DNA of 33,446 bases from Candidatus Roizmanbacteria bacterium RIFCSPHIGHO2_01_FULL_39_8 (GTDB taxonomy: Bacteria; Patescibacteriota; Microgenomatia; UBA1406; GWC2-37-13), in contig MFZI01000023.1 in NCBI GenBank assembly GCA_001789355.1, forward strand, positions 1 to 33,446, given 5' to 3'. The position numbers and the translations under genes are program-made. Below, piece after piece: positions 12,042-31,388 of this stretch. Below the pieces are notes generated by a model that was given only the letters and a program-made list of their open reading frames with translations, ran no database searches and had not been told where the DNA came from. The first letter of the stretch is position 1, and the number at the start of each line of letters is the position of its first letter.

Positions 12042-12410
12042 TTATGGACCTGGTATCTCCAACTTAAACAACTTACAGCTGCTTCCGAATCCTCCCAAGA
12101 AAAGAACGCAGATGATATTGAGGATAAGATAGGCGCTCACGAAGAGAATGAGACCTAGGATTGCAAATTTAAGTGTCCCCTGGGCTTTTTTTACCCCTTC
12201 CGGATTGCCAAGTGAAGTGAGGTAGCGAAATGCGCCGACGACGAACATGATGAATAATACAAGAACAAAAAGAGCCGAAGACATAAAAAGAATATTTCCA
12301 AAAACTACTTCGAGACATTTTAGGGTTGGCACTTCTACCCCCCCAACGTCAACTAAACAACCCGAAGTTGCCCAATCTCTCACCTGAGCATTGACGACAA
12401 AATTATACAT
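12042..12410 (-). CDS. TrbC/VirB2-like 'T4SS pilin' family protein (divergent paralog)
   Basis: Two-TM hairpin with the loop motif YLTSLGNPEGVKKAQGTLKFAILGLILF. This matches the (S/T)xGGNxE..KAK..I...I.G pattern of T4SS-pilin-like proteins. Confidence 0.6.
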   Translation of the reverse strand: MYNFVVNAQVRDWATSGCLVDVGGVEVPTLKCLEVVFGNILFMSSALFVLVLFIMFVVGAFRYLTSLGNPEGVKKAQGTLKFAILGLILFVSAYLILNIICVLFLGGFGSSCKLFKLEIPGP

Positions 12411-12445
12411 AAGGAAATATATGAAAGATTACCAAAATGGAGAAG

Positions 12446-12958
12446 TTATAGCAAGTTCGGTAAGGTAAGTGGGCAGGATATACCAAAGCATACAGCCTTT
12501 TTAAAAATGATTTGTTCAAAAACAACGATGATTGAAAGCACCGCAACAATAATAATAATTCCTAGTATTGCGGCAGTGATCTTGTCTCTTGCCTTATCAA
12601 CACTCTCTTTGTTACCACCTGAGGTGACCCAGGCCATAGCTCCCAAGAGAAGAAACATCAAAGCGAGTAATCCGGCAAGGACGAAAAAACCTCTAACCGC
12701 AAAAGTGAGAAAGGTACTCATCGTTGGGATTACAAAGCCAAGACCACCAGCGGTTACTGGACCGGTATTCACCCGAACAACCGTAGAAGGATCTGCACAG
12801 GCATTGCCTACCGCTTGACCGATTGCTGCACATGTAGCCGGGTCGCCTGGTGCAGCGAGAGTCTGTGCCCATTTAAATGTTTGAGTAGCAGCGTCAAGTT
12901 TACATTCACAAACAGCGTAAACTGGTCGAATTATTTTATCTAAAATTGCTTGTAACAT
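12446..12958 (-). CDS. TrbC/VirB2-like 'T4SS pilin' family protein
   Basis: C-terminal module LGFVIPTMSTFLTFAVRGFFVLAGLLALMFLLLGAMAWVTSGGNKESVDKARDKITAAILGIIIIVAVL...CFGISCPLTLPNLL. The N-terminal part is Cys-rich and variable. Confidence 0.7.
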   Translation of the reverse strand: MLQAILDKIIRPVYAVCECKLDAATQTFKWAQTLAAPGDPATCAAIGQAVGNACADPSTVVRVNTGPVTAGGLGFVIPTMSTFLTFAVRGFFVLAGLLALMFLLLGAMAWVTSGGNKESVDKARDKITAAILGIIIIVAVLSIIVVFEQIIFKKAVCFGISCPLTLPNLL

Positions 12959-12964
12959 ATTATC

Positions 12965-13390
12965 TTAAGGACCTGACTTTTGTAATAGATTAGGTAATAC
13001 AAGATCACACGATATTCCAAAACAAAGCTTTCCTTTGAATACCACTTGTTCTAATGTTACCATAATTGCCAAGACTGCTACAATGAGGACTACTCCCAAA
13101 ATTGCAGCGGTAATCTTGTCTCTTGCCTTATCTACACTTTCTTTATTTCCACCTGAGGTGACCCATCCCATAGCTCCCAAAAGAAGAAACATCAAAGCGA
13201 GTAACCCGGCAAGGACAAAAAAGCCTCGGATTGCAAAAGTGAGGAAGGTGCTAAAACTTGGAATAGTGAAACCCAGTTCTGAATCACTTATCTGAATTTG
13301 ATCCGTGGGAACAGGAGTAGAAGAGGGAACCTGGGCCAAAACTGACTTTACTAAAAAAGAGTTTATAAATTGGAAGATTTTAGCAACCAT
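12965..13390 (-). CDS. TrbC/VirB2-like 'T4SS pilin' family protein
   Basis: It has the same C-terminal module as 12446..12958, and the nucleotide blocks are nearly identical. The signal-like N-terminus is MVAKIFQFINSFLVKSVLAQ. The track start at 13435 is probably an upstream extension. Confidence 0.7.
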   Translation of the reverse strand: MVAKIFQFINSFLVKSVLAQVPSSTPVPTDQIQISDSELGFTIPSFSTFLTFAIRGFFVLAGLLALMFLLLGAMGWVTSGGNKESVDKARDKITAAILGVVLIVAVLAIMVTLEQVVFKGKLCFGISCDLVLPNLLQKSGP

Positions 13391-13446
13391 ATATTTCTTA
13401 CAAAAAAGAATACTCAATACAATATGCTTTGTCAAGCCCCATTTGA

Positions 13447-20239: not shown

Positions 20240-21451
20240 CTATTTTTGAAGGAGAACAAATCCCATGCCTTTTTTTGTTCTCAAGGCATAAGGAGATTTC
20301 ATAGCAATTAGTTTTGTCCTCACTCGATGTAAGAGTTGATCGATTGCCCACTCAGAATATTTTTCTTCAACATCTGATTCCCAGATTCTTTCTGCGATAA
20401 CATCCCTTCCTACAATAGTGTTAAGATTTTTCTGGAGGTGAGTGAAAACACGATATTCTTGATCTGATAAAACTAAATGGTAGTTGAGATTAATTTCATC
20501 TTCCTGTTTATGTTTCTTGACAATTGTCGAGAGATATGGGGGGTAAATAATATATTCCCCTTTTTCTTTTTTTAAAAGTCCCAACTTAGTAAGATATTCT
20601 AGGTAAAGAGTATCCTTGTCTTGAGTCTGATAACCTCCTTGAGAGATTGCTTCTAAGAGCTTGCGGATCTCTTGAGAGAAAACCTGAACCATTGTTTGGG
20701 CTCTGTCGATCATTGAAACATCCTCTGCGATTTCGCCGGGTGTTATTTTTGACCTCTCACGAATAAGACGCATTGCATTTTTTATCCATCCCAATCTACC
20801 CGAGCAATTCTTCAGAATCCACTCTTTCTGTTTTCTATTAATATGCATATTCCATTTTTCTTCAAGATATTTTATAAACTGAGTTGAATCCTCTATTGAA
20901 TAAAGAGGAATATAAAAGAAATTAGCTGCTAGAGGGTTTTTTTCAAAAAGCTTGGATTTTGTTCTTTTTTCGAGTAAGTAAACGCCGGTAAAAACCAAAA
21001 TAGATAGATTATCAAAACGTTCATTGAGGGAAACAAGTTCTTTGAAAAGAGTGAAATCTAAATTTTGTATCATCCTATCTGCTCCTGTAACAAATAAAGC
21101 TATGTCAAATCCGTTTTCTCGTAATGTACTCATTAGTACTATAAGATCATTTCCCTCAAAACTAATATCCTCTCTTTTCACTCCTCTTTTCAATTGTGAT
21201 TGTAACTCCGAAAAAAGCCGATACTTTTCGATCTTTGGCTCTTCATATAAATCTAAATGAATACAAATTGTCCTTTTTTTGAGACCGAAAATAATGTGTA
21301 ATTTCTTATCTTCGATAAATTGAAGTATTCTTCTTTCCACACCCGTTTTGGGAGGCATCATAAAAAAACCCATTTCACGATAAGGAAGAAAAGAGATCCA
21401 TCCCTCTACCATTTTCCTGAAAGAGTGTGGATGTATAGGAGGTTCTGTCAT
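20240..21451 (-). CDS. Transcriptional regulator: degenerate P-loop/STAND-like N-domain plus C-terminal OmpR/PhoB-type winged helix
   Basis: C-terminus LSDQEYRVFTHLQKNLNTIVGRDVIAERIWESDVEEKYSEWAIDQLLHRVRTKL...GMGFVL fits Trans_reg_C. In the N-domain, MPPKTGVERR stands in place of Walker A and ALFVTGADR in place of Walker B. Confidence 0.7.
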   Translation of the reverse strand: MTEPPIHPHSFRKMVEGWISFLPYREMGFFMMPPKTGVERRILQFIEDKKLHIIFGLKKRTICIHLDLYEEPKIEKYRLFSELQSQLKRGVKREDISFEGNDLIVLMSTLRENGFDIALFVTGADRMIQNLDFTLFKELVSLNERFDNLSILVFTGVYLLEKRTKSKLFEKNPLAANFFYIPLYSIEDSTQFIKYLEEKWNMHINRKQKEWILKNCSGRLGWIKNAMRLIRERSKITPGEIAEDVSMIDRAQTMVQVFSQEIRKLLEAISQGGYQTQDKDTLYLEYLTKLGLLKKEKGEYIIYPPYLSTIVKKHKQEDEINLNYHLVLSDQEYRVFTHLQKNLNTIVGRDVIAERIWESDVEEKYSEWAIDQLLHRVRTKLIAMKSPYALRTKKGMGFVLLQK

Positions 21452-21523
21452 GCTAACATTATACTCTACCCTTTATTCTTTTTGGTATAATGATGTCCTA
21501 TTTAATTTTATTATAAGGTATAT

Positions 21524-23440
21524 ATGCGCTTAGCTGAGGTTGCCCAGCGTCTACAAAATAATTCTTTTTTAAACACGGTCTTATCCTACGGTAGGCTTAA
21601 TGATTATCTTCTGCTACACGCTTTAGATCATGATATTAAATTAGCCGTAACAAGTACTCCCAATCGTTATACAGTCCTTCCTTCTGAAATAGTTCCTCCA
21701 AGCGAAATCTTCCGAAATGGGGTCCGAATGAACATCAGAGAATTCATTCGTATTCATGAACAAAACTCTATTCCAGGTATACCAGAGTTAAATACAGCAG
21801 AGGTGATTACCGAATCCATGATGCCTTTCATGAGTTTTTTAATGGACGAAATAGAGGCGCTCGAACAAAAAAGAGGACGAACATCACATTTTATCCGCTC
21901 CAGCTCTGTCGCTGATATTTTACTTGCTAAGACGTCATTTCAACCTACTGAGAACTCAGTTCCTATTGCCCGAAGGGGAGAGCTCAAAAGCATCATTGCA
22001 AACGATCACCCTCATGAACGATTCCCCCTCGGAACGCTTTTAGACAGAGTTAAACAACAACTTCATACCGGTTCAGATCTCGATCTAAAGATCGAATTTT
22101 CAGATTATCACAGTTTTTTTGAATATCTTCGTCAAACACTCCCCTCATATGATGAGAACCTTGAACTGCTCGTAAACAACGAAGACGATAAAGGAGGGAT
22201 GTTTATCTGGCATCTAAAAGGAAAACAAATAACTGCGGGAGCCAGATACGATGAAGGTCCTATTTTACCCCATGAACTGTATCTACGCTGCCGACACACC
22301 TCAACGAGGAGTGGTATTCCCCGGATAGAAGTCGAGCTTATTCATGGTGAGAACTTTGATGGAAAAGAGCTCGAAATTAGACAACACGATCTCAATATTC
22401 TTTTTTCAATTGGTTTTTCCCAATATGAAAGCCTTACTGAAGAGGTTCGAGCAAGAGATACGAGAGTCTCTAGAATCGCCAACAAATGGGATCAAAAAGG
22501 CAGGGGAAGATTGGTCCGAGAGAATGAGGATATTTATCTAGCTGCTGAAAAGGAATCAGTCGCTGCCTTAGCTTCGCCAAACGAAGTGGGCGAAGAGATT
22601 GATAGCTTGAGAGAGTATCGACCTATTCTTTTTTTTGATGAAACACTAAGAATATTTAGAAAAGCTGTTGTAGAAAAAAGAAATCTTGAATTCTCAAGGG
22701 AAGGGAGAACTCATATGACTCCGGATTTCAATTCATCAACAAGTAGTCGATTCTGGCGGGATCATGGTTACTATTTCCCTATCACCGACGATTCTCTCAC
22801 TTATATTAATTCCGTGTTGCGCAATCCGGATTTTTTCGAAAATTTTCACATTGCCTGGAACGAGCTAGAATCTGAGAGAAAAATGTTTTTTTCAACGATC
22901 TTTGCCTCTGAAATTATGACCATGTTATTTTATGCTCCAAAGGAAACATTCACCCTCTTAAGAGATTTTGGATACACTGAATTTTTTCCTTTTCTTAAAG
23001 GTCTTTCGGAAAGACCTGATATATATAATACAGTTATAGAAGAACTCCCAGATCAAAGGGAGCTTGAGTTGACGACACTACTCAGGATGGATTGGTACAA
23101 TGCTCTTACCAAACGAGTTCAACCTCTTTTGAATAGTTCGCAATATCGAAGAAACGCTCTCCACATCGGGGCTAGTATTATGCATTCTGACGAGTCTATT
23201 TTTCACTCTACTCCCTATATTATCGATAACTTGTGCCTTACCCCACGAATGTTAAGAATAAGAAAAGTATTAGAAAAGATGGCCGAATTAACAAGCTCTT
23301 TTTCTCCTACGACGATCGTTCCTACCGGTTTTTCCTCCATGGTTCGTCTTGTAACAATAGATCCCTCCCTTTACCCTCAAGGCTATCCCACATGGCTCAG
23401 AGATGTGATTACCCCTATTAGAGATACATCCTTGAGATAG
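21524..23440 (+). CDS. Large hypothetical protein (638 aa), no recognisable domain
   Basis: A long uninterrupted ORF transcribed divergently from the regulator, with no TM segment or signal peptide. Confidence 0.65.
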   Translation: MRLAEVAQRLQNNSFLNTVLSYGRLNDYLLLHALDHDIKLAVTSTPNRYTVLPSEIVPPSEIFRNGVRMNIREFIRIHEQNSIPGIPELNTAEVITESMMPFMSFLMDEIEALEQKRGRTSHFIRSSSVADILLAKTSFQPTENSVPIARRGELKSIIANDHPHERFPLGTLLDRVKQQLHTGSDLDLKIEFSDYHSFFEYLRQTLPSYDENLELLVNNEDDKGGMFIWHLKGKQITAGARYDEGPILPHELYLRCRHTSTRSGIPRIEVELIHGENFDGKELEIRQHDLNILFSIGFSQYESLTEEVRARDTRVSRIANKWDQKGRGRLVRENEDIYLAAEKESVAALASPNEVGEEIDSLREYRPILFFDETLRIFRKAVVEKRNLEFSREGRTHMTPDFNSSTSSRFWRDHGYYFPITDDSLTYINSVLRNPDFFENFHIAWNELESERKMFFSTIFASEIMTMLFYAPKETFTLLRDFGYTEFFPFLKGLSERPDIYNTVIEELPDQRELELTTLLRMDWYNALTKRVQPLLNSSQYRRNALHIGASIMHSDESIFHSTPYIIDNLCLTPRMLRIRKVLEKMAELTSSFSPTTIVPTGFSSMVRLVTIDPSLYPQGYPTWLRDVITPIRDTSLR

Positions 23441-23466
23441 ATTCTCATTCCATTTATAATATATTC

Positions 23467-23832
23467 ATGACAATACATACCTGTGATGCGCTCGTCGTTT
23501 CTTGCATAGACTTCCGATTCCAAAAATATATCCGCGAATGGCTCGAGAAGAATATGGAGAATAAGAAATATGATTATGTTGGATTTGCTGGGGGAGTAAA
23601 GGATCTTATCACGATTGTAAAACAACTTGATATCTCTGTAAAACTACATCACATATCAGAGGTTACTCTTATCAATCATGAAGACTGTGGAGCATATGGT
23701 AAAGAAAGCACTCACACTAGGCATTCCCAGGATCTCAAAACTGCAAAAAAAGTGATACACTCGCTTTATCCCGACTTAACTGTAGATCTCTATTATCTTC
23801 ACCTCGATGGGAGATTTGAAAAAATTAAATAA
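23467..23832 (+). CDS. Minimal beta-carbonic-anhydrase-like protein
   Basis: SCIDFR (CxDxR) and NHEDCGAYG (HxxCG) occur in the beta-CA order, but the protein is only 121 aa. Confidence 0.45.
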   Translation: MTIHTCDALVVSCIDFRFQKYIREWLEKNMENKKYDYVGFAGGVKDLITIVKQLDISVKLHHISEVTLINHEDCGAYGKESTHTRHSQDLKTAKKVIHSLYPDLTVDLYYLHLDGRFEKIK

Positions 23833-23856
23833 TATCTTCTTTGTTACAATTACTCT

Positions 23857-24957
23857 ATGTCTTCTTCTATCTATTGTTATGATCCGATAGCGGGTGATCC
23901 CTTAAGTAGAGTAAGAGGAGTTGGGAGATATCTTCAGATTCTTCGTGAAAATTTTTCTCATTGGACTTTTGCTAATAAATCGGGAATGAGAAATTCGGAA
24001 TTGAGAATTTTTATCAATCCGTTCTTCAATTTTTTACAACCCCCCTTAAGCATAAGGCGAATCGCAAAAAAACAAGTAGCGATAATTCATGACCTTATCC
24101 CTCTTAAATATCCAGAGCATTTTCCAGCCGGGATAAAAGGCAAAATAAATATTTTTCTTAATAAATTAGTTTTGAAACATTATGACAGTATTGTCACCGA
24201 TTCTGAGGCCAGTAAGAAAGATATTGTGAGAATTTTGGGAATAAATGAAGATAAAGTAAAGGTGATTTATCCCTGCCTTCCCAAAATTTTCAGTAATTCG
24301 AAATTAGTAATTCGTGATTCGGAAAAACAAAAACAAGAAAATCCTAATTACCAATTACCAGTTACTAATTACTGTATCTACGTCGGTGATGCAACCTGGA
24401 ATAAGAATCTGGTCAATCTCGCCCGCGCGATAAAAGAAATCAATGTGACGTGTGTATTTGTAGGAAAAGTATTCAGTAATTCGGAATTAGTAATTAGTAA
24501 TTTGGACAAACAAAATAATCCTAATTACCAATTACCAGTTACCAGTTACTCCAATCCTTGGCAGAAAGAACTCAAACAGTTTATCGAAGAGGCGAAAAAT
24601 GACAAGCGCTTCATATTTCCCGGTTTTATCCCCGATGAAGAGCTGATGACTCTCTACCGAAATGCAAAATGTAATATTCTTGTTTCCCGCGACGAGGGAT
24701 TCGGGTTTTCTTATCTTGAAGCAGCCTCCCAAAGCTGTCCTTCTATTCTCTCGGGCATCCCAACGTTAAAAGAAATTAGCGACTCGAAAGGGGCGCTATT
24801 TGCTCCACCGGAAAAAGTAAGCGATATTGCAAACACTATTGGTGAATTGTATTTTAATCGAGACAAACGGAATACATTGGGAATTGAGGCTGAACGACAA
24901 GCTAGGTACTATTCCTATTCCAAATTTACACATGAGTGGAGTAAAATAGTGATATGA
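23857..24957 (+). CDS. Family 4 (GT-B, group 1) glycosyltransferase carrying two in-frame repeat insertions
   Basis: C-terminal domain FPGFIPDEELMTLYRNAKCNILVSRDEGFGFSYLEAASQSCP (E-x7-E region). Its stop overlaps the next start as ATGA. Confidence 0.85.
   Translation: MSSSIYCYDPIAGDPLSRVRGVGRYLQILRENFSHWTFANKSGMRNSELRIFINPFFNFLQPPLSIRRIAKKQVAIIHDLIPLKYPEHFPAGIKGKINIFLNKLVLKHYDSIVTDSEASKKDIVRILGINEDKVKVIYPCLPKIFSNSKLVIRDSEKQKQENPNYQLPVTNYCIYVGDATWNKNLVNLARAIKEINVTCVFVGKVFSNSELVISNLDKQNNPNYQLPVTSYSNPWQKELKQFIEEAKNDKRFIFPGFIPDEELMTLYRNAKCNILVSRDEGFGFSYLEAASQSCPSILSGIPTLKEISDSKGALFAPPEKVSDIANTIGELYFNRDKRNTLGIEAERQARYYSYSKFTHEWSKIVI
24289..24372 (+). repeat. In-frame word-stutter inverted-repeat element, copy 1
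   Basis: ttcaGTAATTcgaaattaGTAATTcgtgattcgg...aatcctAATTACcAATTACcAGTTACtAATTAC. It encodes FSNSKLVIRDSEKQKQENPNYQLPVTNY. Confidence 0.7.
24472..24549 (+). repeat. In-frame word-stutter inverted-repeat element, copy 2
   Basis: ttcaGTAATTcggaattaGTAATTaGTAATTt...aatcctAATTACcAATTACcAGTTACcAGTTAC. It encodes FSNSELVISNLDKQNNPNYQLPVTSY and starts 183 nt after copy 1. Confidence 0.7.
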
Positions 24958-26462
24958 AAAGGATCTTCTTCATTTTACTTTTCATAATTGGCCTATCTTT
25001 GCAATCAGTTCTTGCACAAGAGGCAACAGATATAAGTCACCTTTTTACTGAACAAAAAGCGAGAGTGAGTTCTCGACAATCACCTTCTCTCCAAATCACT
25101 CCCATTCCATCTGTCGAAACGAGCGATGCCCTACCCACCACAGGAGAATGGAAAGGAAAAGCGATAAAAATAATACCTATAGATCGTTTCTTTCCAGAAA
25201 CAGACCATTTTATCCCCGAAGGAATAAAATCTCTGACAACTTTGAAGGATGGCCGAATCATTGGAGGAGGAAAAGATGCATTTTTTATCAAATTTTCTGC
25301 CGATGTTGCCTGGAAGAACCTTCAACTAGTCGAAATCCCAAATAGTTTTGACTTAGACGGAATACGATTCATCAGGATCGCAGAAACAAATACTTCTTCT
25401 GATATCTATCTTGACGGAGACCTCGGACTCGTAAAGCTGGACAAAAATTATTTTTTGTCAGAGATTGAAGATCCCTTTGATTCTTCTGGACATCTAAAGG
25501 ATTTCAAAGATATGGCAGTAGGCAATAGGGCTCTCGCGGCTTTTAAGAATGGCAATTATGGCTATACCAATGGAGCTCTCTATTTTATACACAAAAATAT
25601 TCTGCGGAAGTGGTTGCTCCCTAGGCCTGATCCAAGCAGAAACTCTGACTCGATCCTCGGAATATTCCATGACGTATCCGCCAATAACAGCCTCTATATC
25701 ATAGTTGGCTGCGAGGCATATGGAGGAATCTGCCCATTTTCAGATCTCGCAAAACAATATCTCGTCAGGCTGCAATTTTCAGCTAATACGCAAGTTCCAC
25801 TTAGTGCAACAAGGCTGACAAAGGTATCGATACCAGAATTTGTATCGGGCCAATATATTTATAAACCTCGTATAAAGCTAAATCCTGACGGCAAAAAGAC
25901 TCTGTACTCAATTCTCAAAACTCCGCAACAAAAGGATCGTCTTGCTGTAATCTACGACTTTAAACCAAACTCTCCACTTCTAGAACTTCATCTGTACTCG
26001 ATCCCCTCCCCATCTGAAAGCGTTGAAGCAATTTTGGATTTTGTCTTAGATAGCGATCCCAACACAGACATCGTATATGCGGTAACGAGCGGACCATCAG
26101 CTCTCTGGGCTATCTCCGATCTAAAACCAAATATTGTTCCTTCCATAGAGTCCATTGCCGAAGTTAATACTCAGTCTTTGACTATGGATTCTTCTAAAAA
26201 TATTATCTTAGGCTTTGGTCCATCTCCGCCAAATACGGCCGCAATAACAATATGGTCAACTGTAGCAAATCCCATAACTCCAACTTCTACAAATGTTTCT
26301 CTCCAAGAGATCCAAATAAACGAAAATGCGCTCGGCTTCAAAATTCCTACATTTAGCCAATTTCTTACATTTGCTATCCGCGGATTTTTTGTACTTGCAG
26401 GTTTACTCGCACTCCTTTTTTTACTCTTGGGGGGGGCTTGCTTGGATTGTTTCAGGGGGTAA
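24954..26462 (+). CDS. Large secreted protein whose C-terminus enters the T4SS-pilin-like module and is then cut short by a frameshift
   Basis: Signal peptide MKRIFFILLFIIGLSLQSVLAQ. From residue about 470, LGFKIPTFSQFLTFAIRGFFVLAGLLALLFLLLGG matches the pilin paralogs, then the sequence diverges (ACLDCFRG*) right after the G8 tract. Confidence 0.75.
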   Translation: MKRIFFILLFIIGLSLQSVLAQEATDISHLFTEQKARVSSRQSPSLQITPIPSVETSDALPTTGEWKGKAIKIIPIDRFFPETDHFIPEGIKSLTTLKDGRIIGGGKDAFFIKFSADVAWKNLQLVEIPNSFDLDGIRFIRIAETNTSSDIYLDGDLGLVKLDKNYFLSEIEDPFDSSGHLKDFKDMAVGNRALAAFKNGNYGYTNGALYFIHKNILRKWLLPRPDPSRNSDSILGIFHDVSANNSLYIIVGCEAYGGICPFSDLAKQYLVRLQFSANTQVPLSATRLTKVSIPEFVSGQYIYKPRIKLNPDGKKTLYSILKTPQQKDRLAVIYDFKPNSPLLELHLYSIPSPSESVEAILDFVLDSDPNTDIVYAVTSGPSALWAISDLKPNIVPSIESIAEVNTQSLTMDSSKNIILGFGPSPPNTAAITIWSTVANPITPTSTNVSLQEIQINENALGFKIPTFSQFLTFAIRGFFVLAGLLALLFLLLGGACLDCFRG

Positions 26463-26640
26463 TAAGGAAAGTGTTGAGAAGGCTCGTGATAAAATCGTGG
26501 CTGCTTTAATAGGAGTCATTATCATGGTGGCAGTCCTTTCTCTAGTTGTTGCGCTGGAACAAGTCGTGTTTAAACAAAGTATTTGCTTTGGGATATCTTG
26601 TCCAATTACTCTTCCTGATCTGCTTAAACCTTCAAATTAA
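26326..26640 (+). CDS. Out-of-frame (+1) continuation of the preceding gene: second half of the pilin-like module
   Basis: From about nt 26430, this frame reads GGLAWIVSGGNKESVEKARDKIVAALIGVIIMVAVLSLVVALEQVVFKQSICFGISCPITLPDLL, collinear with the paralogs at 12446 and 12965. The ATG at 26326 is probably not a real start. Confidence 0.6.
   Translation: MRSASKFLHLANFLHLLSADFLYLQVYSHSFFYSWGGLAWIVSGGNKESVEKARDKIVAALIGVIIMVAVLSLVVALEQVVFKQSICFGISCPITLPDLLKPSN
26429..26436 (+). repeat. G8 homopolymer at the frameshift point
   Basis: ctcttGGGGGGGGcttgc. With 7 G the two frames join to give LLLGGLAWIVSGGNKES. Confidence 0.9.
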
Positions 26641-26684
26641 CTCCTGATAATAATCACCCAGCAAAATATGCTATTCTAGAATTC

Positions 26685-26885
26685 ATGGATCTCCTTACTT
26701 ATTGCGTCATTTCCATCATCTATATTCTACTTATGCACTTTGCAATACAAATTAACGCAGAATTCAAGTTGTTTGTTATGGTTTTGATCTTTTTTTTTGG
26801 AGGAGTCGTTGGTACCTTCTTGCAATCTTATGAATTTGGACTCGTAGCTGCAATCATTATTTCCCAAATCAAGTGGGAAAACTAA
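26685..26885 (+). CDS. Hypothetical small membrane protein (66 aa, two TM segments)
   Basis: Hydrophobic ORF that converges on tatD and overlaps its stop by 4 nt. Confidence 0.4.
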   Translation: MDLLTYCVISIIYILLMHFAIQINAEFKLFVMVLIFFFGGVVGTFLQSYEFGLVAAIIISQIKWEN

Positions 26886-27736
26886 ATAATTGCAAAAAGG
26901 CTTTTTGCATTGGTTGTGGTCGCTTCAATGAGTTGATCCAGGGGAATATTTGTTGTCTTTGCAATAAACTCTGCAATGCGTTTCAAATTCTTTGGCTCGT
27001 TTGGGCCACGAATGTTTCGGGGTTGGGATCGCAAAGGCTCGGGATGAAGGAAAGGAGCGTCTGTTTCTAAAACAAGCATGTTGAGAGGAATTTTTTTTAT
27101 GAATTCTTGTTTATCTTTGCGATAGGTAATGTCACCATCGACCCCGATATACATATTGTGTTCTTTCGCAAAAATAAGGAGCTCTTCATCCGGCTCACAA
27201 CAGTGAAAAACGCTTCTGCCTGCAAGTTTCGGGTCCCATTTTTTACTTAACACGGACAAGGTGTCTGCCTTTGCTTCTCGGTTATGAAGAATCAGGCTTT
27301 TGTCATACTTTTTTGCTAGTTCGATTTGCTCTCTTAGAAATTCTTTCTGCAGTTCGATAAATTCTTCTGTCACCTGATAATTTACATGCCTCGTATTCTG
27401 ATAATAATGCCTATCTAATCCTATCTCCCCCACTGCAACTACTTTAGGATTTTTAACGAGCGCTTCAATTTTTTGAATTTCAGATTTGAGATTTGAGTTA
27501 TAGTTTTGAGTTTTGATATCTGAGTTTTGAACTTGAAAGACGTGGTGCGGGTGGATTCCTACTGTTGCATAGACATATTCGTGTTGTTCAGCAATTTCTA
27601 CCGCGTTTCGTGAAGTCTTCACGTTAGTCCCCGGAACTACAATACGAGTCACGCCAGCATCCTTTGCACGCTGGATAATATCGTCAATATTGGGAAGTAA
27701 CATCTTGAAATTGAGATGACAATGAGTGTCAAACAT
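26882..27736 (-). CDS. tatD: TatD family metal-dependent hydrolase/DNase
   Basis: MFDTHCHLN, VGIHPHH, VAVGEIGLD, ILHNREA, FHCC and VLETDAPFL motifs. Confidence 0.9.
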   Translation of the reverse strand: MFDTHCHLNFKMLLPNIDDIIQRAKDAGVTRIVVPGTNVKTSRNAVEIAEQHEYVYATVGIHPHHVFQVQNSDIKTQNYNSNLKSEIQKIEALVKNPKVVAVGEIGLDRHYYQNTRHVNYQVTEEFIELQKEFLREQIELAKKYDKSLILHNREAKADTLSVLSKKWDPKLAGRSVFHCCEPDEELLIFAKEHNMYIGVDGDITYRKDKQEFIKKIPLNMLVLETDAPFLHPEPLRSQPRNIRGPNEPKNLKRIAEFIAKTTNIPLDQLIEATTTNAKSLFAII

Positions 27737-27740
27737 TCTT

Positions 27741-27833
27741 CATGTAACAGAGAACATATAACATGTAACATTCTAATTCATACTTTCTTTTAATTGTTAC
27801 ATGTTTCATGTTACATGCTACAATGTAAACATG
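27741..27833. promoter_or_regulatory. Array of CATGTAACA / TGTTACATG 9-mers in the divergent tatD-rpiB promoter region
   Basis: Forward copies at 27741-27749 and 27762-27770. Reverse copies at 27795-27803 and 27809-27817. One degenerate copy, ATGTAAACATG, overlaps the rpiB ATG. Confidence 0.4.
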
Positions 27834-28274
27834 ACCATCTTCATCGGTGCCGACCACCGAGGATTTGAGTTAAAAAATAAACTTATCGAATACATTCAGG
27901 AAAAAAATATTCGAGTTGAAGATCTCGGTGCGTTTGAATTAGACCCATTGGATGATAATCCTGACTATGCTCAAAAAGTTGCCCAAACAGTTCTTCAAAA
28001 TCCAAAAGAGTTTTTGGGAATAGTAATCTGCGGATCAGGAAATGGAGTCGCGATGGCTGCGAACCGGTATAAAGGAATCTTTTGTGGGCTTGCCTTTGAT
28101 GTTCACCAAGTCAAACATATGCGTGAACACGATCATATCAATATGCTCGCAATCCCTGCTGACTATATTGATGTTGAGGTAGCTAAAAAATTTATAGATA
28201 TTTTTCTTTCATCCCAACCTAAGCAGGAAGAAAAATATATACGAAGACTTAAAAAAACAGATACTACTCCTTAA
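27831..28274 (+). CDS. rpiB: Ribose-5-phosphate isomerase B (RpiB/LacA/LacB family)
   Basis: MTIFIGADHRGFELKNKLIEYI and ICGSGNGVAMAANR. The track start at 27801 lies within the repeat array and is probably spurious. Confidence 0.9.
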   Translation: MTIFIGADHRGFELKNKLIEYIQEKNIRVEDLGAFELDPLDDNPDYAQKVAQTVLQNPKEFLGIVICGSGNGVAMAANRYKGIFCGLAFDVHQVKHMREHDHINMLAIPADYIDVEVAKKFIDIFLSSQPKQEEKYIRRLKKTDTTP

Positions 28275-29088
28275 CCTGTGAAATTTTGTCGTTTTTTGAA
28301 AAACGCTTTCCCAAAAAGAATCGTATCATTTTTTTATACCTTTCATTCAAGTCAGATACATAGTATTCACGTTTTTTCCCTTTTGCCAACTTTTTTTCGA
28401 GAGCGCTATGTCTCTTGAGATATTCTTTTAGCTTTTGAGCTGTCACTTTTCCCTCGGATAAGATCTTTGTCGATGGCCCGACTAAGGATCGAATTTTTTT
28501 ATCAATTAATCCGTAATGAGTGCATCCTAAAACAAGTGTGTCTATATTTTTTTCTTTAAGCGGCGCGAGATACTTCCGGAGCAGAAGATTTAAACCTTCC
28601 CACTGGACTTCTCCCTCTTCGATTACTGGGACAAGAAGCGGACAGGCATTTTGATATACATCAATTTTGTCATCCAATTTTTTCAGCTCAGCGACAAAGC
28701 TTTTCGAAATTACAGTCGCATACGTTGCCATAATACCAACACGTTTTGAGTTTTTTTCCACAATTGCTTCGACAGTGGGTCGAATTATTCCTAGCACCCG
28801 TCGTTCCGGATAGCAGTGAATAAGGTATTCTCTCTGGATTTTGGGAAGGGATATAGCTGTCGCTGTATTACAGGCGAGAATAACGAGAAGACAGTTTTTC
28901 TTCATTAAAAAATCGACTGCCTTACGGGTATATTCATAAATCAATTCTGCAGATTTTCCGCTGTAGGGAACTCTGGCGTTGTCCCCGAAATAAATATAGT
29001 TGTACTGCGGAAGTTCATCGAGTATGTCTTTTAGAACGGATAAACCGCCTAAGCCCGAATCGAAGACTCCAATAGAAAATGGTTTCAT
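28264..29088 (-). CDS. murI: Glutamate racemase
   Basis: IGVFDSGLGGLSVL, ILACNTAT, LVLGCTHY. Confidence 0.9.
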   Translation of the reverse strand: MKPFSIGVFDSGLGGLSVLKDILDELPQYNYIYFGDNARVPYSGKSAELIYEYTRKAVDFLMKKNCLLVILACNTATAISLPKIQREYLIHCYPERRVLGIIRPTVEAIVEKNSKRVGIMATYATVISKSFVAELKKLDDKIDVYQNACPLLVPVIEEGEVQWEGLNLLLRKYLAPLKEKNIDTLVLGCTHYGLIDKKIRSLVGPSTKILSEGKVTAQKLKEYLKRHSALEKKLAKGKKREYYVSDLNERYKKMIRFFLGKRFSKNDKISQVKE

Positions 29089-29324
29089 GGAGTTTTTTTA
29101 TTTTTTTTCCTTAACCCCAAAAGACTAACAAAAAAGATAATCAAATACATAAAAAATCCGTATACGCAGGCAGGCAATTGGAAGAGAGAGAATGTACTAC
29201 CGCATTGAACTAAAGCATTTTTGCATCCCACGGCAAATAATTCCATATACGATAAATAGCCGGAAAAGAGAAGTCCTGCCAGCGAAAGAATAAAAATTGC
29301 TTTCAGAGCTTTTTCGGGATTCAT
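29085..29324 (-). CDS. Small Cys-containing membrane protein (VKOR-like N-terminal pattern, uncertain)
   Basis: 79 aa, 2-3 TM segments, GCKNALVQCGSTFSLFQLPACVYG. Its stop overlaps the murI start by 4 nt. Confidence 0.5.
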   Translation of the reverse strand: MNPEKALKAIFILSLAGLLFSGYLSYMELFAVGCKNALVQCGSTFSLFQLPACVYGFFMYLIIFFVSLLGLRKKNKKTP

Positions 29325-29340
29325 AGTTTAATTTTTTGCG

Positions 29341-30018
29341 TCACTCTTTTGCTGAAGATACCATCTTTTGGAAAGCCTTTATGTTATTTATTGTTATCTT
29401 GTGGCGCAAATAGCTTATTGCTTTTTCTTTTTGCAGCTTTTCCAGCTCGCGGCTTGCTGTCTCGCGGCTTATTCCCGCAAAAGATGCGATATCACGATGA
29501 GTAAAGGCTTCATTTAACTTCGCTACATTTCCTTTTTTTTCACCGAAGTGTCTGGACAAAAAAAGGAGCGCGGATATGATTTTCAGCTTTGCATTTCCAT
29601 TCGTAAGATTTTCTATACGTAGAATCAATTTATCCAGTCCGAGAAGGAGTCTTCTTGAGAGATCAAGAACTACATCGGGTTCTTTTTTCAAAAAATTAAC
29701 CAATTCTTCTTTGGGAATAATATAGAGTTCAGCCGGAGTAATAGTTTCGTAAAAGTACCTGTTTTTTGTCTTACTTATGATTGCAAGCATGGGAAAATAA
29801 GATCCTGGGGCAAAAATATGCAGAGTCAGCTCAACACCCTGGGGTGAAAGTGCATATTCGCGGACATATCCCTTTTTGAGATAAAAGGCTTCTTCGGGTG
29901 TTTCTTCAGCATCGATAAGTATGCTTCCTTTTTTTAACACTTTTTTCGTGAAGCGCGAAAAAAATTTCTCAATTTTTTGAGTCAGATTAGAGGGCATAGG
30001 ATCAGTGCAAGTATACAT
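29341..30018 (-). CDS. Crp/Fnr family transcriptional regulator
   Basis: cNMP-binding-like beta-roll (FYLKKGYVREYALSPQGVELTLHIFAPGSYF) and C-terminal HTH (THRDIASFAGISRETASRELEKL). The start is uncertain: ATG at 30018 or 29997. The track start at 30138 is an extension. Confidence 0.8.
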   Translation of the reverse strand: MYTCTDPMPSNLTQKIEKFFSRFTKKVLKKGSILIDAEETPEEAFYLKKGYVREYALSPQGVELTLHIFAPGSYFPMLAIISKTKNRYFYETITPAELYIIPKEELVNFLKKEPDVVLDLSRRLLLGLDKLILRIENLTNGNAKLKIISALLFLSRHFGEKKGNVAKLNEAFTHRDIASFAGISRETASRELEKLQKEKAISYLRHKITINNIKAFQKMVSSAKE

Positions 30019-30296
30019 CTCCTTTTGTAAGATTTCAAATATAATATAACGATTAGTAGAAAACATGAGATAATTGTGCAAAATATGAGCGTGGATTCTG
30101 ACCCTTCTCGTCGCGGTGGATCTCGAGAGCCAATACATCTTAATTGGTTTATAGATGTTTGGCTATATCTCCTTTCACTAAAATCTACTCAGAATCAAAA
30201 AAAAACAGGTAGTTTTTTACCACTAAGTAGTCAACCTCCAACTAGGCCTGATAGTCAAAGACATCCTTTTCGTGATGATTTTGGTGCAGCAGATGA

Positions 30297-31388
30297 TTAA
30301 ATTATTTTAAAATATTTGCCTTCCTGATTTTTTTCCACAGCTCCCTTTATCTCAAAAATGGAAAGAATGTTAAGAATTTTTTCTATCGGCAATTTGGTTT
30401 CTTGGATTAACTCATCTGAAGATTTTGGTCCGTCTTTAAGTGAAGAGTAAACAACTTTTTCATCTGGCTCTAATTCTGACTCTACGTCTTTGCTCTCTTT
30501 TGGAACTCGTCTCAGATTAAATTCTTCAAAAATATCCTCTACCGATGTGACAAGTTTCGCTCCTTGTTTTAACAGATTATGAGGAGCTTCTGACATCTTT
30601 GAGGTCAGAAGACCAGGCAGTGCAAATACATCTTTTCCCTGTTCTGCCGCATATCTGGCGGTGATCATTGCTCCCGAATCTCTCGCTCCCTCTATAACAA
30701 GTACTCCTAATGATAATGCAGAGATTATTCTATTTCGGGCAATAAAAAGTCCTTTAACCACGGTCTGCCCCGGGGGAAATTCGGATATAATGAGCCCCTC
30801 TTTCTCAATTATTTTGTAATACAAGGAAGAGTTTATGGCAGGATAGATGATGTCTACCCCGCAGCCTAAAACTGCAACCGTCCTGCCGCCCGAATTAATG
30901 CATGCTAAGTGAGCTGCAGCATCGATCCCTATTGCAAGTCCGGAAACAATAATAAATCCTCCTTCCGTTAATTCTGCCGAAAACTTCTTTGCCATCTGTT
31001 GACCGTAGCTCGTTGGCTCTCTGGTTCCGACGATCGCCAGACATGCGTATGTATCAAATGGAAATGACTCAATTTTTCCTTTTATATAGAGACAGAGTGG
31101 AGGGTCCGAAATTTCTTTAATTTTTTTGGGGTAAACCTTATTATTGAATGGAATTACGGAAATATGTTTTCTTTTTAATTCTTCAAGTTTTTTAACCGGA
31201 TCAAATTTTTTTCGAAATTCTATAAACTTTTCTCCCCAGTTGTTTCCGATGATTTCTTTTATTTTAGCCCTGTCACCTTCATAAGATTTTTTAACACTCC
31301 CGAAATGATTTAAAAGAGCGGTGAACCGGGTAGGCCCGATTCCTAAAAAATGTGAAAAGCCGAGATAGTAATAAACATCATCTGACAT
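30297..31388 (-). CDS. dprA: DNA-processing protein A (Rossmann-like DNA-binding, competence-associated)
   Basis: AIVGTREPTSYG, SGLAIGIDAAAH, GVLVIEGARDSGAMITARYAAEQGKDVFALPG and a C-terminal wHTH-like tail. Confidence 0.9.
   Translation of the reverse strand: MSDDVYYYLGFSHFLGIGPTRFTALLNHFGSVKKSYEGDRAKIKEIIGNNWGEKFIEFRKKFDPVKKLEELKRKHISVIPFNNKVYPKKIKEISDPPLCLYIKGKIESFPFDTYACLAIVGTREPTSYGQQMAKKFSAELTEGGFIIVSGLAIGIDAAAHLACINSGGRTVAVLGCGVDIIYPAINSSLYYKIIEKEGLIISEFPPGQTVVKGLFIARNRIISALSLGVLVIEGARDSGAMITARYAAEQGKDVFALPGLLTSKMSEAPHNLLKQGAKLVTSVEDIFEEFNLRRVPKESKDVESELEPDEKVVYSSLKDGPKSSDELIQETKLPIEKILNILSIFEIKGAVEKNQEGKYFKII

What the first reader, a model, noticed from the sequence alone, without database searches (positions are those of the whole stretch)
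24954..26640. Large secreted protein fused to the pilin-like module, interrupted at a G8 tract
ORF 24954..26462 encodes a signal peptide (SVLAQ cleavage-like site, shared with the pilin paralog at 12965) and a roughly 440-aa extracellular region. It then enters the conserved pilin module (LGFKIPTFSQFLTFAIRGFFVLAGLLALLFLLLGG).

Right after a run of eight G (26429-26436), the homology jumps to the +1 frame (LAWIVSGGNKESVEKARDKIVAALIG...CFGISCPITLPDLL, ending at 26640). With seven G, the two parts form one protein of about 561 aa.

A G8 run is conspicuous in such an AT-rich coding background. It is the classic substrate for slipped-strand phase variation of surface proteins, but it is also the classic site of sequencing or assembly indels.

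The architecture is a large ectodomain anchored by a VirB2/TrbC-like two-TM pilin module. It suggests a pilus-tip or surface adhesin built on a pilin scaffold, which I do not recognise as a described type. The gene start also overlaps the stop of the upstream GT4 glycosyltransferase (ATGA at 24954-24957), suggesting co-expression and possibly glycosylation.
Basis: partly seen in the sequence, partly recalled or inferred. Interest (0 to 1): 0.7.

Follow-up and report, generated by a model that had tools for sequence, protein, structure and literature searches.

The report
Propeller-headed pilin gene with variable G-tract
A tiny groundwater bacterium (Candidatus Roizmanbacteria) has a gene that joins a large beta-propeller surface domain to a conjugation-type pilin module. 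In this copy the gene is broken by one extra G in a G-run whose length differs (7 or 8) between otherwise near-identical assemblies from the same aquifer.

Summary
G8 lies at 26429-26436. ORF 24954-26462 runs into it, and the pilin homology continues in the +1 frame to 26640. Removing one G gives a 561-aa protein.

It is one gene, not two. Intact 561-aa alleles exist in other assemblies of the same population: G7 in L063, GGGGTGG in L001. A 54%-identical ortholog of 572 aa sits in the same synteny.

The protein has three parts: a Sec signal peptide, a roughly 380-aa beta-propeller with no Pfam family, and a two-helix hairpin. The hairpin is homologous to the short PF18895 (VirB2-like) pilins of Roizmanbacteria.

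The fusion is rare. The closest 120 of more than 1,000 pilin-module relatives are 117-232 aa. The 17 other proteins with this propeller carry lectin, CBM or dockerin tails instead of a pilin module.

The tract is polymorphic. G8 is in 14 contigs and G7 in 3, and one sample's assembly holds both. No other homopolymer in the region varies.

However, the tract is absent from the ortholog, and a G8 run is not beyond chance. No reads could be inspected.

Verdict: a real chimeric pilin gene with a young, slippage-prone tract. True phase variation, pilus-tip adhesin function and glycosylation all remain unproven.

The parts
23857..24957 (+). GT4-type glycosyltransferase gene. Its TGA stop overlaps the ATG of the fusion gene (ATGA at 24954-24957).
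   Evidence: Pfam Glycos_transf_1 E=5.5e-21 and Glyco_trans_1_4 E=2.1e-14. The same adjacency and ATGA overlap occur in ortholog loci L002 and L064.
24954..26462 (+). Fusion gene as it reads in the window (G8 allele). The 502-aa product has the signal peptide, the propeller and the first pilin helix, then 8 out-of-frame residues (ACLDCFRG) and a stop.
   Evidence: The exact product is on record in GCA_001788035.1 and ERZ27254745.
24954..25016 (+). Predicted Sec signal peptide (MKRIFFILLFIIGLSLQSVLA). Cleavage after VLA is inferred.
   Evidence: Hydrophobic peak at residues 1-24 and helix 2-20 in the model. An LAQ-type motif is shared with stand-alone pilins.
25131..26261 (+). Beta-propeller ectodomain (residues about 60-436), with no Pfam or NCBIfam family.
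   Evidence: AlphaFold2 model is all-beta here, with pLDDT about 85-95. Foldseek matches 7-bladed propellers at E about 1e-8 and about 12% identity. Only 17 relatives were found among 1.84 billion representatives.
26262..26351 (+). Low-confidence linker, followed by the conserved mature-pilin N-terminus (TPTSTNVSLQEIQINENALGFKIPTFSQ).
   Evidence: pLDDT is below 50 at residues 441-457. The segment aligns with the mature N-terminus of paralog 12965-13435.
26352..26436 (+). First hydrophobic helix of the pilin hairpin, ending in the G tract.
   Evidence: Helix 467-499 and hydropathy peak at 467-503.
26429..26436 (+). G8 tract, the site of the frameshift. Other assemblies carry G7 or GGGGTGG here.
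26437..26640 (+). Remainder of the pilin module in the +1 frame: charged loop SGGNKESVEKARDK, second helix, and CFGISCPITLPDLL tail. It is translated only from in-frame alleles.
   Evidence: Helix 504-542. Pfam T4SS_pilin matches residues 478-533 at E=2.1e-5.
12042..13435 (-). Tandem array of three stand-alone pilin paralogs (12965-13435, 12446-12958, 12042-12410), downstream of a ComM/Mg-chelatase-like gene (13447-15003).
   Evidence: Pfam T4SS_pilin scores of 24.9, 22.6 and 30.9 bits. The synteny is conserved in Roizmanbacteria loci L014 and L016 and in other assemblies.

Best explanation
**What it is**
- Positions 24954-26640 are one gene of a Candidatus Roizmanbacteria (Microgenomatia, Patescibacteria) genome.
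- It encodes a chimeric pilin. A beta-propeller of about 380 residues is inserted between the Sec signal peptide and the mature part of a PF18895-type (VirB2-like) two-helix pilin.

**How it probably works (inferred)**
- After export and signal-peptide cleavage, the hairpin sits in the membrane with the charged loop inside and both ends outside. The propeller is therefore displayed on the cell surface.
- If the hairpin is taken into a VirB2-like filament, the propeller would sit on the outside of that filament as a minor or tip subunit.

**The tract**
- In the window's strain, a run of seven G (codons Gly-Gly) has gained one G by strand slippage.
- Translation then stops 8 codons later. The product keeps the propeller and one membrane helix but loses the second pilin helix.
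- In-frame (G7) and out-of-frame (G8) alleles coexist in the aquifer population on nearly identical backgrounds. The tract therefore behaves as a young on/off, or pilin/anchor-only, switch.

**Shown and inferred**
- Shown: gene unity, domain order, homology of the module, rarity of the fusion, and allele polymorphism at assembly level.
- Inferred: membrane topology, pilus incorporation, adhesin role, and reversibility of the switch.
For: **One gene**
- Intact 561-aa alleles: P0001 on L001 and P0165 on L063.
- An intact 572-aa ortholog at 54% identity lies in conserved synteny, with the same ATGA overlap to GT4.

**Architecture**
- The AlphaFold2 model has mean pLDDT 80. It is all-beta at residues 60-436, has a floppy linker at 441-457, and has helices at 467-499 and 504-542.
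- Foldseek matches 7-bladed propellers.
- There are three hydrophobic peaks: the signal peptide and the two helices.

**Pilin module**
- Pfam T4SS_pilin E=2.1e-5.
- 39 homologs at E of 1e-20 to 1e-44, of which 27 carry PF18895.
- 1,012 profile hits.
- The alignment shows the mature pilin N-terminus is retained after the propeller.

**Rarity of the fusion**
- All 27 species-representative loci encode 112-135-aa pilins.
- The best 120 profile hits are 117-232 aa.
- The propeller family has 17 other members. Their C-terminal tails are Laminin_G_3, CBM_4_9, CBM96, He_PIG or Dockerin. Only these two clusters carry the pilin module.

**Tract polymorphism**
- G8 is in 14 contigs, from IDBA, MEGAHIT and Logan assemblies.
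- G7 is in L063 (a clean 3.3-kb contig), L038 and L032.
- GGGGTGG is in L001.
- Sample ERZ4903055 has G7 (L038) and G8 (L052) on contigs that overlap at the tract.
- L038 differs from the window by nothing else in 5.6 kb.

**Controls**
- No other homopolymer (T9, A9, several T8) in 20857-30736 shows an indel in any contig.
- The G7 runs at 11602 and 12338 are invariant in 7-9 assemblies.

**Other**
- Both trustworthy SNPs downstream of the tract in G8 alleles are synonymous in the pilin frame.
- The near-identical genome GCA_001788035.1 is listed as VirB4-positive. VirB2-like arrays are reported as common in Microgenomatia (PMC12102498).
Against: - The tract is not conserved. The ortholog reads GGAGCT, the paralogs read GGx GCx, and strain L001 reads GGGGTGG.
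- Only two lengths are seen, and G8 dominates. One slippage event followed by spread would explain the data equally well.
- Two of the three G7 contigs end or have a gap 12-17 nt after the tract. Those two could reflect poor local read support.
- Many of the assemblies may reuse the same Rifle read sets, so the contigs are not all independent.
- A G8 run is expected by chance in about a quarter of shuffles.
- The fused protein's Pfam hit is below the gathering score.
- There is no significant sequence or fold match to a solved VirB2, TraA or CedA pilin.
- No T4SS gene lies in the window, and the pilin array sits next to housekeeping genes.
- A 45-kDa head on every subunit would not fit a VirB2-type helical lattice. 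Pilus incorporation, if any, must be rare.
Confidence: 0.55

Rival explanations
1. Plain pseudogenisation. A single +1G slippage inactivated the gene in one lineage that became dominant in the aquifer. G7 and GGGGTGG are simply the surviving functional alleles of other strains. There is no reversible switching and no functional role for the truncated product.
For: - G8 is the allele of 14 of 18 contigs that span the tract.
- Only G7 and G8 are seen, never G6 or G9.
- The tract is absent in the ortholog and paralogs.
- G8 is not beyond chance.
- The clean G7 contig L063 and the GGGGTGG contig L001 each carry extra SNPs, so they may be distinct strains.
Against: - L038 carries G7 on a background with no other difference in 5.6 kb. 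Its own sample also yields a G8 contig.
- The region downstream of the frameshift is undamaged. Its two reliable SNPs are synonymous in the pilin frame.
- Other homopolymers of similar length never vary.
Confidence: 0.3
2. Sequencing or assembly artefact. The true sequence is in frame (G7 or GGGGTGG), and the eighth G is a homopolymer error.
For: - Homopolymer runs are classic indel-error sites.
- Contig ends and N-gaps cluster within 50 nt of the tract: L038, L052, L050, L032, L049 and L051.
- T-to-G differences next to G runs (26434 in L001 against the others, 26460 in L045) resemble known Illumina run-adjacent miscalls.
Against: - G8 is reproduced in 14 contigs from at least three assemblers and several runs or samples: SRR1658344, SRR2090153, SRR2090155, SAMN03202995 and two GenBank MAGs.
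- Longer A/T runs and two G7 runs show no indel in any assembly.
- Substitution-type miscalls cannot add a base.
Confidence: 0.1
3. Programmed recoding. The G8 allele is the functional form, and full-length protein is made by +1 ribosomal slippage or transcriptional slippage on the G run.
For: - On G8, a P-site Gly-tRNA could re-pair perfectly one base downstream.
- RNA polymerase can slip on long homopolymers (established knowledge).
- The downstream frame is intact.
Against: - The slippery run is not conserved in the ortholog or in strain L001. In-frame alleles exist.
- No rare or stop codon follows the run; the next codon is GCT.
- No stimulatory element was looked for or seen.
Confidence: 0.03
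4. The C-terminal hairpin is only a membrane anchor. The PF18895-like module never enters a filament, and the protein is a cell-surface beta-propeller receptor or enzyme tethered by two helices.
For: - No T4SS genes lie near this gene or near the pilin array in this lineage.
- Relatives of the propeller are anchored by an N-terminal helix and carry carbohydrate-binding tails. This fits a generic surface protein.
- The fold search of the hairpin is not significant.
Against: - The module keeps the whole mature pilin, including the conserved N-terminal LGFxIPxF segment and the CFGISCP tail. It is about 80% identical in DNA between orthologs, while the propeller is 47% identical in protein. That conservation is tighter than a mere anchor would need.
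- The genome has VirB4 (PMC12102498 Table S1).
Confidence: 0.3

Closest known systems
VirB2-like (Pfam PF18895 T4SS_pilin) pilin arrays of Patescibacteria. They are essential in Southlakia epibionticum (Wang et al. 2023, PMC10633639) and were surveyed by Quinonero-Coronel et al. 2025 (PMC12102498).
   Same: - The module is the same: signal peptide, then two hydrophobic helices joined by a short charged loop.
- The clade is the same (Microgenomatia).
- The window also holds a three-gene tandem array of this kind.
   Different: - Described members are small. Close relatives here are 112-232 aa.
- This protein has a propeller of about 380 residues inserted after the signal peptide, giving 561 aa in total.
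- The gene is not in a T4SS cluster or in the array. It lies 11.5 kb away, behind a glycosyltransferase gene.
Poly-G/C homopolymer phase variation of surface-protein genes, for example Neisseria hmbR/hpuAB (PMC3786947) and Campylobacter (PMC8355987). Also short 7-nt tracts such as M. tuberculosis glpK (bioRxiv 10.1101/717272; PMC10334774).
   Same: - An intragenic G run in a surface-protein gene.
- Alleles one base apart that turn the reading frame on or off.
- Both alleles are present in one natural population.
   Different: - The tract is short (7/8).
- It is not conserved in the ortholog, and only two states are seen.
- Switching rate and reversibility are unknown.
- The off state is not null. 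It keeps the ectodomain and one membrane helix.
Pilus-associated beta-propeller adhesins, for example PilY1 of type IV pili (from my own knowledge, not tested here), and the VirB5 tip protein of T4SS pili (PMC12857230).
   Same: The idea is the same: a large binding domain, a propeller in PilY1, presented by a thin filament.
   Different: - PilY1 and VirB5 are separate proteins that dock on the filament.
- Here the head is covalently part of a pilin subunit.
- There is no homology, and the filament class differs from that of PilY1.
The unnamed propeller ectodomain family (P0003-P0019).
   Same: The propeller of about 400 residues is the same, at 20-38% identity, ending in LANPY...GHxYLxGQFN.
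   Different: Those proteins have an N-terminal membrane anchor, a Pro/Thr linker and C-terminal Laminin_G_3, CBM_4_9, CBM96, He_PIG or Dockerin modules. They have no pilin hairpin.

Membership tests
PF18895 T4SS_pilin / VirB2-like pilin | Match to the Pfam model at or above its gathering score (26.6 bits) | tested here: not met
   The G7-repaired protein scores 25.0 bits (E=2.1e-5) and P0001 scores 20.8 bits. Paralog 12042-12410 passes at 30.9 bits.
PF18895 T4SS_pilin / VirB2-like pilin | Clear sequence homology to proteins that are members | tested here: met
   The C-terminal 120 aa hit 39 proteins at E of 1.6e-44 to 2e-11, and 27 of them carry PF18895. The profile search found 1,012 hits.
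PF18895 T4SS_pilin / VirB2-like pilin | Signal peptide followed by two hydrophobic helices joined by a short charged loop | tested here: met
   Helices at 467-499 and 504-542 in the model. Hydropathy peaks at 1-24, 467-503 and 509-545. The loop is SGGNKESVEKARDK.
PF18895 T4SS_pilin / VirB2-like pilin | Small protein (about 100-200 aa precursor) | tested here: not met
   This protein is 561 aa. Relatives are 112-232 aa.
PF18895 T4SS_pilin / VirB2-like pilin | Encoded with T4SS machinery (VirB4, VirB6 and others) | tested here: not met
   No T4SS family was found in any window ORF scanned. VirB4 is reported elsewhere in the near-identical genome GCA_001788035.1 (PMC12102498 Table S1).
PF18895 T4SS_pilin / VirB2-like pilin | Fold similar to solved VirB2, TraA or CedA pilins | tested here: inconclusive
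   The PDB profile search found nothing. Foldseek of the paralog hairpin found nothing at E<=2; the Aeropyrum conjugation pilus 8dfu was rank 11 at E=5.
PF18895 T4SS_pilin / VirB2-like pilin | Polymerises into a filament | not testable with these tools
   Needs microscopy or biochemistry.
Homopolymer-tract phase-variable (contingency) gene | Intragenic homopolymer whose length sets the reading frame | tested here: met
   G8 is out of frame and G7 is in frame.
Homopolymer-tract phase-variable (contingency) gene | Length differs between otherwise near-identical genomes | tested here: met
   G8 in 14 contigs and G7 in L063, L038 and L032. L038 has no other difference in 5.6 kb. Control tracts are invariant.
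Homopolymer-tract phase-variable (contingency) gene | Mixture of lengths within one population sample | tested here: inconclusive
   The ERZ4903055 assembly holds G7 (L038) and G8 (L052) on contigs overlapping at the tract. Read counts were not available.
Homopolymer-tract phase-variable (contingency) gene | Tract maintained in orthologs | tested here: not met
   The ortholog reads GGAGCT and has no G/C run of 6 or more in the gene. L001 reads GGGGTGG.
Homopolymer-tract phase-variable (contingency) gene | High-frequency, reversible switching | not testable with these tools
   Needs deep reads, time series or culture.
Programmed frameshift / transcriptional slippage gene | Conserved slippery site in orthologs | tested here: not met
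   In-frame alleles and an ortholog without the run exist.

The most novel reading that the evidence does not exclude
The gene encodes a new class of T4SS pilus subunit: a VirB2-like pilin that carries its own beta-propeller head. It would be incorporated at the tip, or sparsely along the filament, of a Patescibacteria pilus to recognise the host cell or a surface glycan. A hypermutable G tract would toggle the protein between a pilus-competent form and a membrane-tethered, one-helix form. That would be phase-variable host recognition in an uncultivated episymbiont.
Probability: 0.15. Interest if true: 0.75.

Novelty: new variant of a known kind. Interest (0 to 1): 0.5.

Why it matters
VirB2-like pilins were recently found to be essential for the epibiotic life of Patescibacteria, yet nobody knows what their filaments bind. 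A pilin that carries its own large binding domain would give a concrete, testable candidate for host or substrate recognition. Its propeller is elsewhere joined to lectin and dockerin modules.

The 7/8-G polymorphism in a natural aquifer population would also be an accessible case for asking whether these tiny-genome bacteria use slipped-strand switching of surface proteins. Public Rifle time-series reads can answer that directly.

If the tract turns out to be a one-off mutation, the finding reduces to a rare domain fusion plus a recent pseudogene.

Tried and rejected
- **Genome-contig scan with P0001:** no relative found. The second scan, with alignment A1, found only short pilins.
- **Both metagenome-contig scans:** the propeller alignment A3 and an exact DNA pattern across the tract both found nothing. 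JGI contigs added no tract alleles by that route.
- **Profile of pilin modules against PDB sequences:** only spurious armadillo-repeat hits.
- **Foldseek of the stand-alone pilin model:** nothing significant. Structural membership stays open.
- **NCBIfam:** no family for the fusion or the propeller. Only far-sub-threshold hits of the paralogs to a mycoplasma ICE pilin-like family.
- **Repeats as the cause of contig breaks near the tract:** rejected for the window. No exact repeat of 15 nt or more from 26301-26640 occurs elsewhere in the window. Paralogs outside the window could not be checked.
- **Programmed frameshift:** rejected as the main reading because the run is not conserved.
- **Two independent genes:** rejected because of the intact alleles and ortholog.
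- **Glycosylation of the protein by the upstream GT4:** the adjacency is conserved, but nothing tests the protein as substrate. It is left as speculation.
- **Promoter and terminator scan:** counts were not above the shuffled expectation.


Full report
**1.

- The window is 39% G+C. Its longest G/C run is GGGGGGGG at 26429-26436.
- ORF 24954-26462 encodes 502 aa and ends ...FLTFAIRGFFVLAGLLALLFLLLGGACLDCFRG*.
- From 26437 the +1 frame reads LAWIVSGGNKESVEKARDKIVAALIG...CFGISCPITLPDLLKPSN, stopping at 26640.
- That stretch aligns residue for residue with the stand-alone pilin-like gene at 12965-13435(-) and with its two tandem neighbours.
- Removing one G gives a 561-aa protein.
- The ATGA overlap with the upstream GT4 glycosyltransferase gene and the shared SVLAQ motif are also as described.
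- A G8 run alone is not beyond chance. 27 of 100 dinucleotide-preserving shuffles contain one. The significance lies in the homology on both sides of it.

**2. It is one gene, not two**

- A search of 5.8 billion protein clusters returned two clusters. The other is a 572-aa protein at 54% identity (P0002).
- The cluster of P0001 also holds a second intact 561-aa form (P0165), the window's 502-aa product, and 487/488-aa versions that gene callers started at a later codon.
- The ortholog sits in the same gene order on a 12.5-kb contig (L064): HD, dCTP deaminase, Trans_reg_C protein, a 627-aa protein, Pro_CA_2, GT4, then the fusion gene. It has the same ATGA overlap with GT4 and no G/C run of 6 or more.

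**3. What the protein is**

*Model and fold*
- An AlphaFold2 model built on 19 sequences has mean pLDDT 80.
- It shows an N-terminal helix (the signal peptide) and an all-beta domain from about residue 60 to 436, mostly at pLDDT 85-95.
- A disordered linker at 441-457 follows, then two long helices at 467-499 and 504-542.
- Foldseek against the PDB matches seven-bladed propellers at E about 1e-8 and about 12% identity. Examples are the clathrin terminal domain, WD40 proteins and the periplasmic sensor propellers BT4673/BT4663. This identifies the fold but not a function.

*The propeller family*
- The propeller has no Pfam or NCBIfam family.
- A full HMMER scan of 1.84 billion representative proteins found only 17 relatives, at 20-38% identity.
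- Those relatives share the propeller. They have an N-terminal membrane helix, a Pro/Thr linker and varied C-terminal modules: Laminin_G_3 in three, CBM_4_9 in two, He_PIG in two, CBM96 in one and Dockerin_1 in one. The pilin module occurs only in P0001 and P0002.

*The C-terminal module*
- It scores just under Pfam's gathering score for PF18895 T4SS_pilin, at 25.0 bits against 26.6, E=2.1e-5.
- It matches 39 short proteins at E of 1.6e-44 to 2e-11, and 27 of them carry PF18895.
- A profile of these finds 1,012 proteins. Those with a source name are labelled Candidatus Roizmanbacteria.
- The alignment shows the fusion keeps the entire mature pilin, including the segment just after the signal-peptide cleavage site of the stand-alone forms. 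The propeller therefore looks inserted between signal peptide and mature pilin.

**4. How unusual the fusion is**

- All 27 loci recovered from species-representative genomes encode stand-alone pilins of 112-135 aa. The titles of these records name Roizmanbacteria or other Patescibacteria, or carry an 'uncultured Gammaproteobacteria' or plain 'bacterium' label.
- The 39 closest relatives are 72-210 aa.
- The best 120 profile hits are 117-232 aa.
- The published survey of Patescibacteria T4SS genes describes VirB2-like arrays of 2-11 genes, especially in Microgenomatia. The passages I retrieved with term searches do not mention large fusions (PMC12102498; PMC10633639).
- I could not list the lengths of all 1,012 hits. 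Fusions to other ectodomains among more distant pilins are not excluded.

**5. The G tract across assemblies**

Looking up the exact neighbouring proteins (GT4, TatD, the 104-aa +1 ORF) brought in many contigs of the same population. They come from Rifle aquifer samples: 'ANAN16' scaffolds, MEGAHIT re-assemblies, Logan contigs and two GenBank MAGs.

*Alleles in contigs spanning the tract*
- G8 is in 14 contigs: the window, L003/L044 (GCA_001788035.1), L004, L033/L043, L034, L035, L036 (GCA_001788115.1), L037 (SRR1658344), L041 (SRR2090155), L042, L045, L047, L048 (SRR2090153) and L052.
- G7 is in three:
  - L063 is a clean 3,308-nt scaffold spanning the whole gene, with one other SNP.
  - L038 has no other difference in 5.6 kb, but the contig ends 17 nt after the tract.
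  - L032/L046 has a 10-N gap 12 nt after the tract.
- GGGGTGG (Gly-Trp) is in L001, which also differs at three other SNP sites in 3.6 kb.
- Sample ERZ4903055 yields both alleles. The upstream contig carries G7 (L038). The downstream contig starts 10 nt before the tract and carries G8 (L052).

*Contig breaks and controls*
- Several other contigs break within 50 nt of the tract: L050, L049 and L051.
- No repeat within the window explains these breaks.
- In the same contigs, no other homopolymer between 20857 and 30736 shows an indel. That includes the T9, the A9 and several T8 runs.
- The two G7 runs elsewhere are invariant in 7-9 assemblies each. One is in the GT2 gene at 11602. The other is in pilin paralog 3 at 12338.

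*What this means*
- The eighth G is very unlikely to be a random assembly error.
- The in-frame G7 allele is real at least in L063.
- The pattern is what a mixed population at modest coverage would give. It is equally what a single slippage event that spread would give.
- Some assemblies probably reuse the same reads, so the contigs are not all independent.

**6. Is it an evolved switch?**

*Against*
- The ortholog reads GGA GCT at this position. Most pilins have Gly-Ala there.

*A simple history (inference)*
- The ancestral state was Ala (GCx).
- It changed to Gly (GGG), creating G7.
- G7 then slipped to G8 in one lineage, or mutated to TGG (Trp) in another, which breaks the run.

*For continued use of the downstream frame*
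- The downstream frame is undamaged.
- The two reliable SNPs found there in G8 contigs (26460 T>G and 26620 C>T) are both synonymous in the pilin frame. Two sites carry little weight.

*Consequence of the frameshift*
- The G8 product is not null. It keeps the signal peptide, the propeller and one membrane helix, and would be a C-terminally anchored surface protein lacking the second pilin helix.
- I regard the tract as a young, slippage-prone site that currently gives on/off alleles. Whether switching is frequent and reversible is open.

**7. Mechanism**

*Shown*
- The domain order.
- Three hydrophobic segments.
- Homology to VirB2-like pilins.
- Conserved translational overlap with a GT4 gene.

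*Inferred from what is known of VirB2/TraA pilins*
- The loop faces the cytoplasm, or the pilus lumen, and both termini face outward.
- The propeller is therefore displayed outside the cell, and on the outer face of a filament if the hairpin is polymerised.
- A 45-kDa head cannot fit on every subunit, so it would have to be a minor or tip subunit.

*Open alternative*
- The hairpin may serve only as an anchor.
- No T4SS genes are in the window.
- The three-gene pilin array lies between a ComM-like gene and a GT2 gene. This arrangement is conserved in other Roizmanbacteria.
- Neither sequence nor fold searches tie the hairpin significantly to a solved pilin.

**8. Verdict**

- Its architectural reading is supported.
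- Its phase-variation idea is partly supported by assembly-level polymorphism.
- The adhesin and glycosylation ideas remain hypotheses.
- The object is a new variant of a known kind: a VirB2-like pilin of Patescibacteria carrying a large propeller head, with a variable G tract.
- Interest is moderate. It becomes high only if read data show true switching, or if the protein is found on filaments.

Noticed in passing
window 12042-15003 (- strand): A tandem array of three divergent PF18895-type pilin genes lies directly downstream of a ComM/Mg-chelatase-like gene. A GT2 gene sits on the opposite strand. The same order is seen in other Roizmanbacteria (L014, L016), with no T4SS genes nearby.
   Followed up: partly
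window 12338-12344 and 11602-11608: Two further runs of seven G on the coding strand, each encoding Gly-Gly. One is in pilin paralog 3 and one is in the GT2 gene. Both are in frame and invariant in 7-9 other assemblies.
   Followed up: yes
window 26410-26486; loci L038, L052, L050, L032, L049, L051: Contig ends and a scaffold gap from several independent assemblies cluster within about 50 nt of the G tract. No repeat within the window explains this. It may reflect mixed alleles or poor read quality after the run.
   Followed up: partly
L045 (ERZ4903072), equivalent to window 26460: A T-to-G change turns GGGGGT into GGGGGG just downstream of the tract. It removes the out-of-frame stop, giving a 488-aa product, and is synonymous in the pilin frame. 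It could be a real SNP or a run-adjacent miscall.
   Followed up: partly
L064 9079-9522 (ortholog locus): In the related species, the gene downstream of the fusion gene is a Wzy_C (O-antigen ligase/polymerase-like) gene on the opposite strand. In the window, TatD occupies that position. Together with the conserved GT4 gene, this hints at a surface-glycan neighbourhood.
   Followed up: no
window 21524-23440 (+): A 638-aa ORF has no Pfam or NCBIfam hit. It is conserved upstream of Pro_CA_2, GT4 and the fusion gene in the ortholog locus, where it is 627 aa. Its function is unknown.
   Followed up: no
window 23432-23460: The best sigma-70-like promoter match of the region (11 of 12) lies in the short gap before the Pro_CA_2 gene. 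This suggests a Pro_CA_2-GT4-fusion operon. Counts of such sites are not above the shuffled expectation.
   Followed up: no
window 13447-15003 and 30297-31388: ComM-like and DprA genes, both linked to natural transformation in other bacteria, are present in the window. Their relation to the pilin genes was not examined.
   Followed up: no
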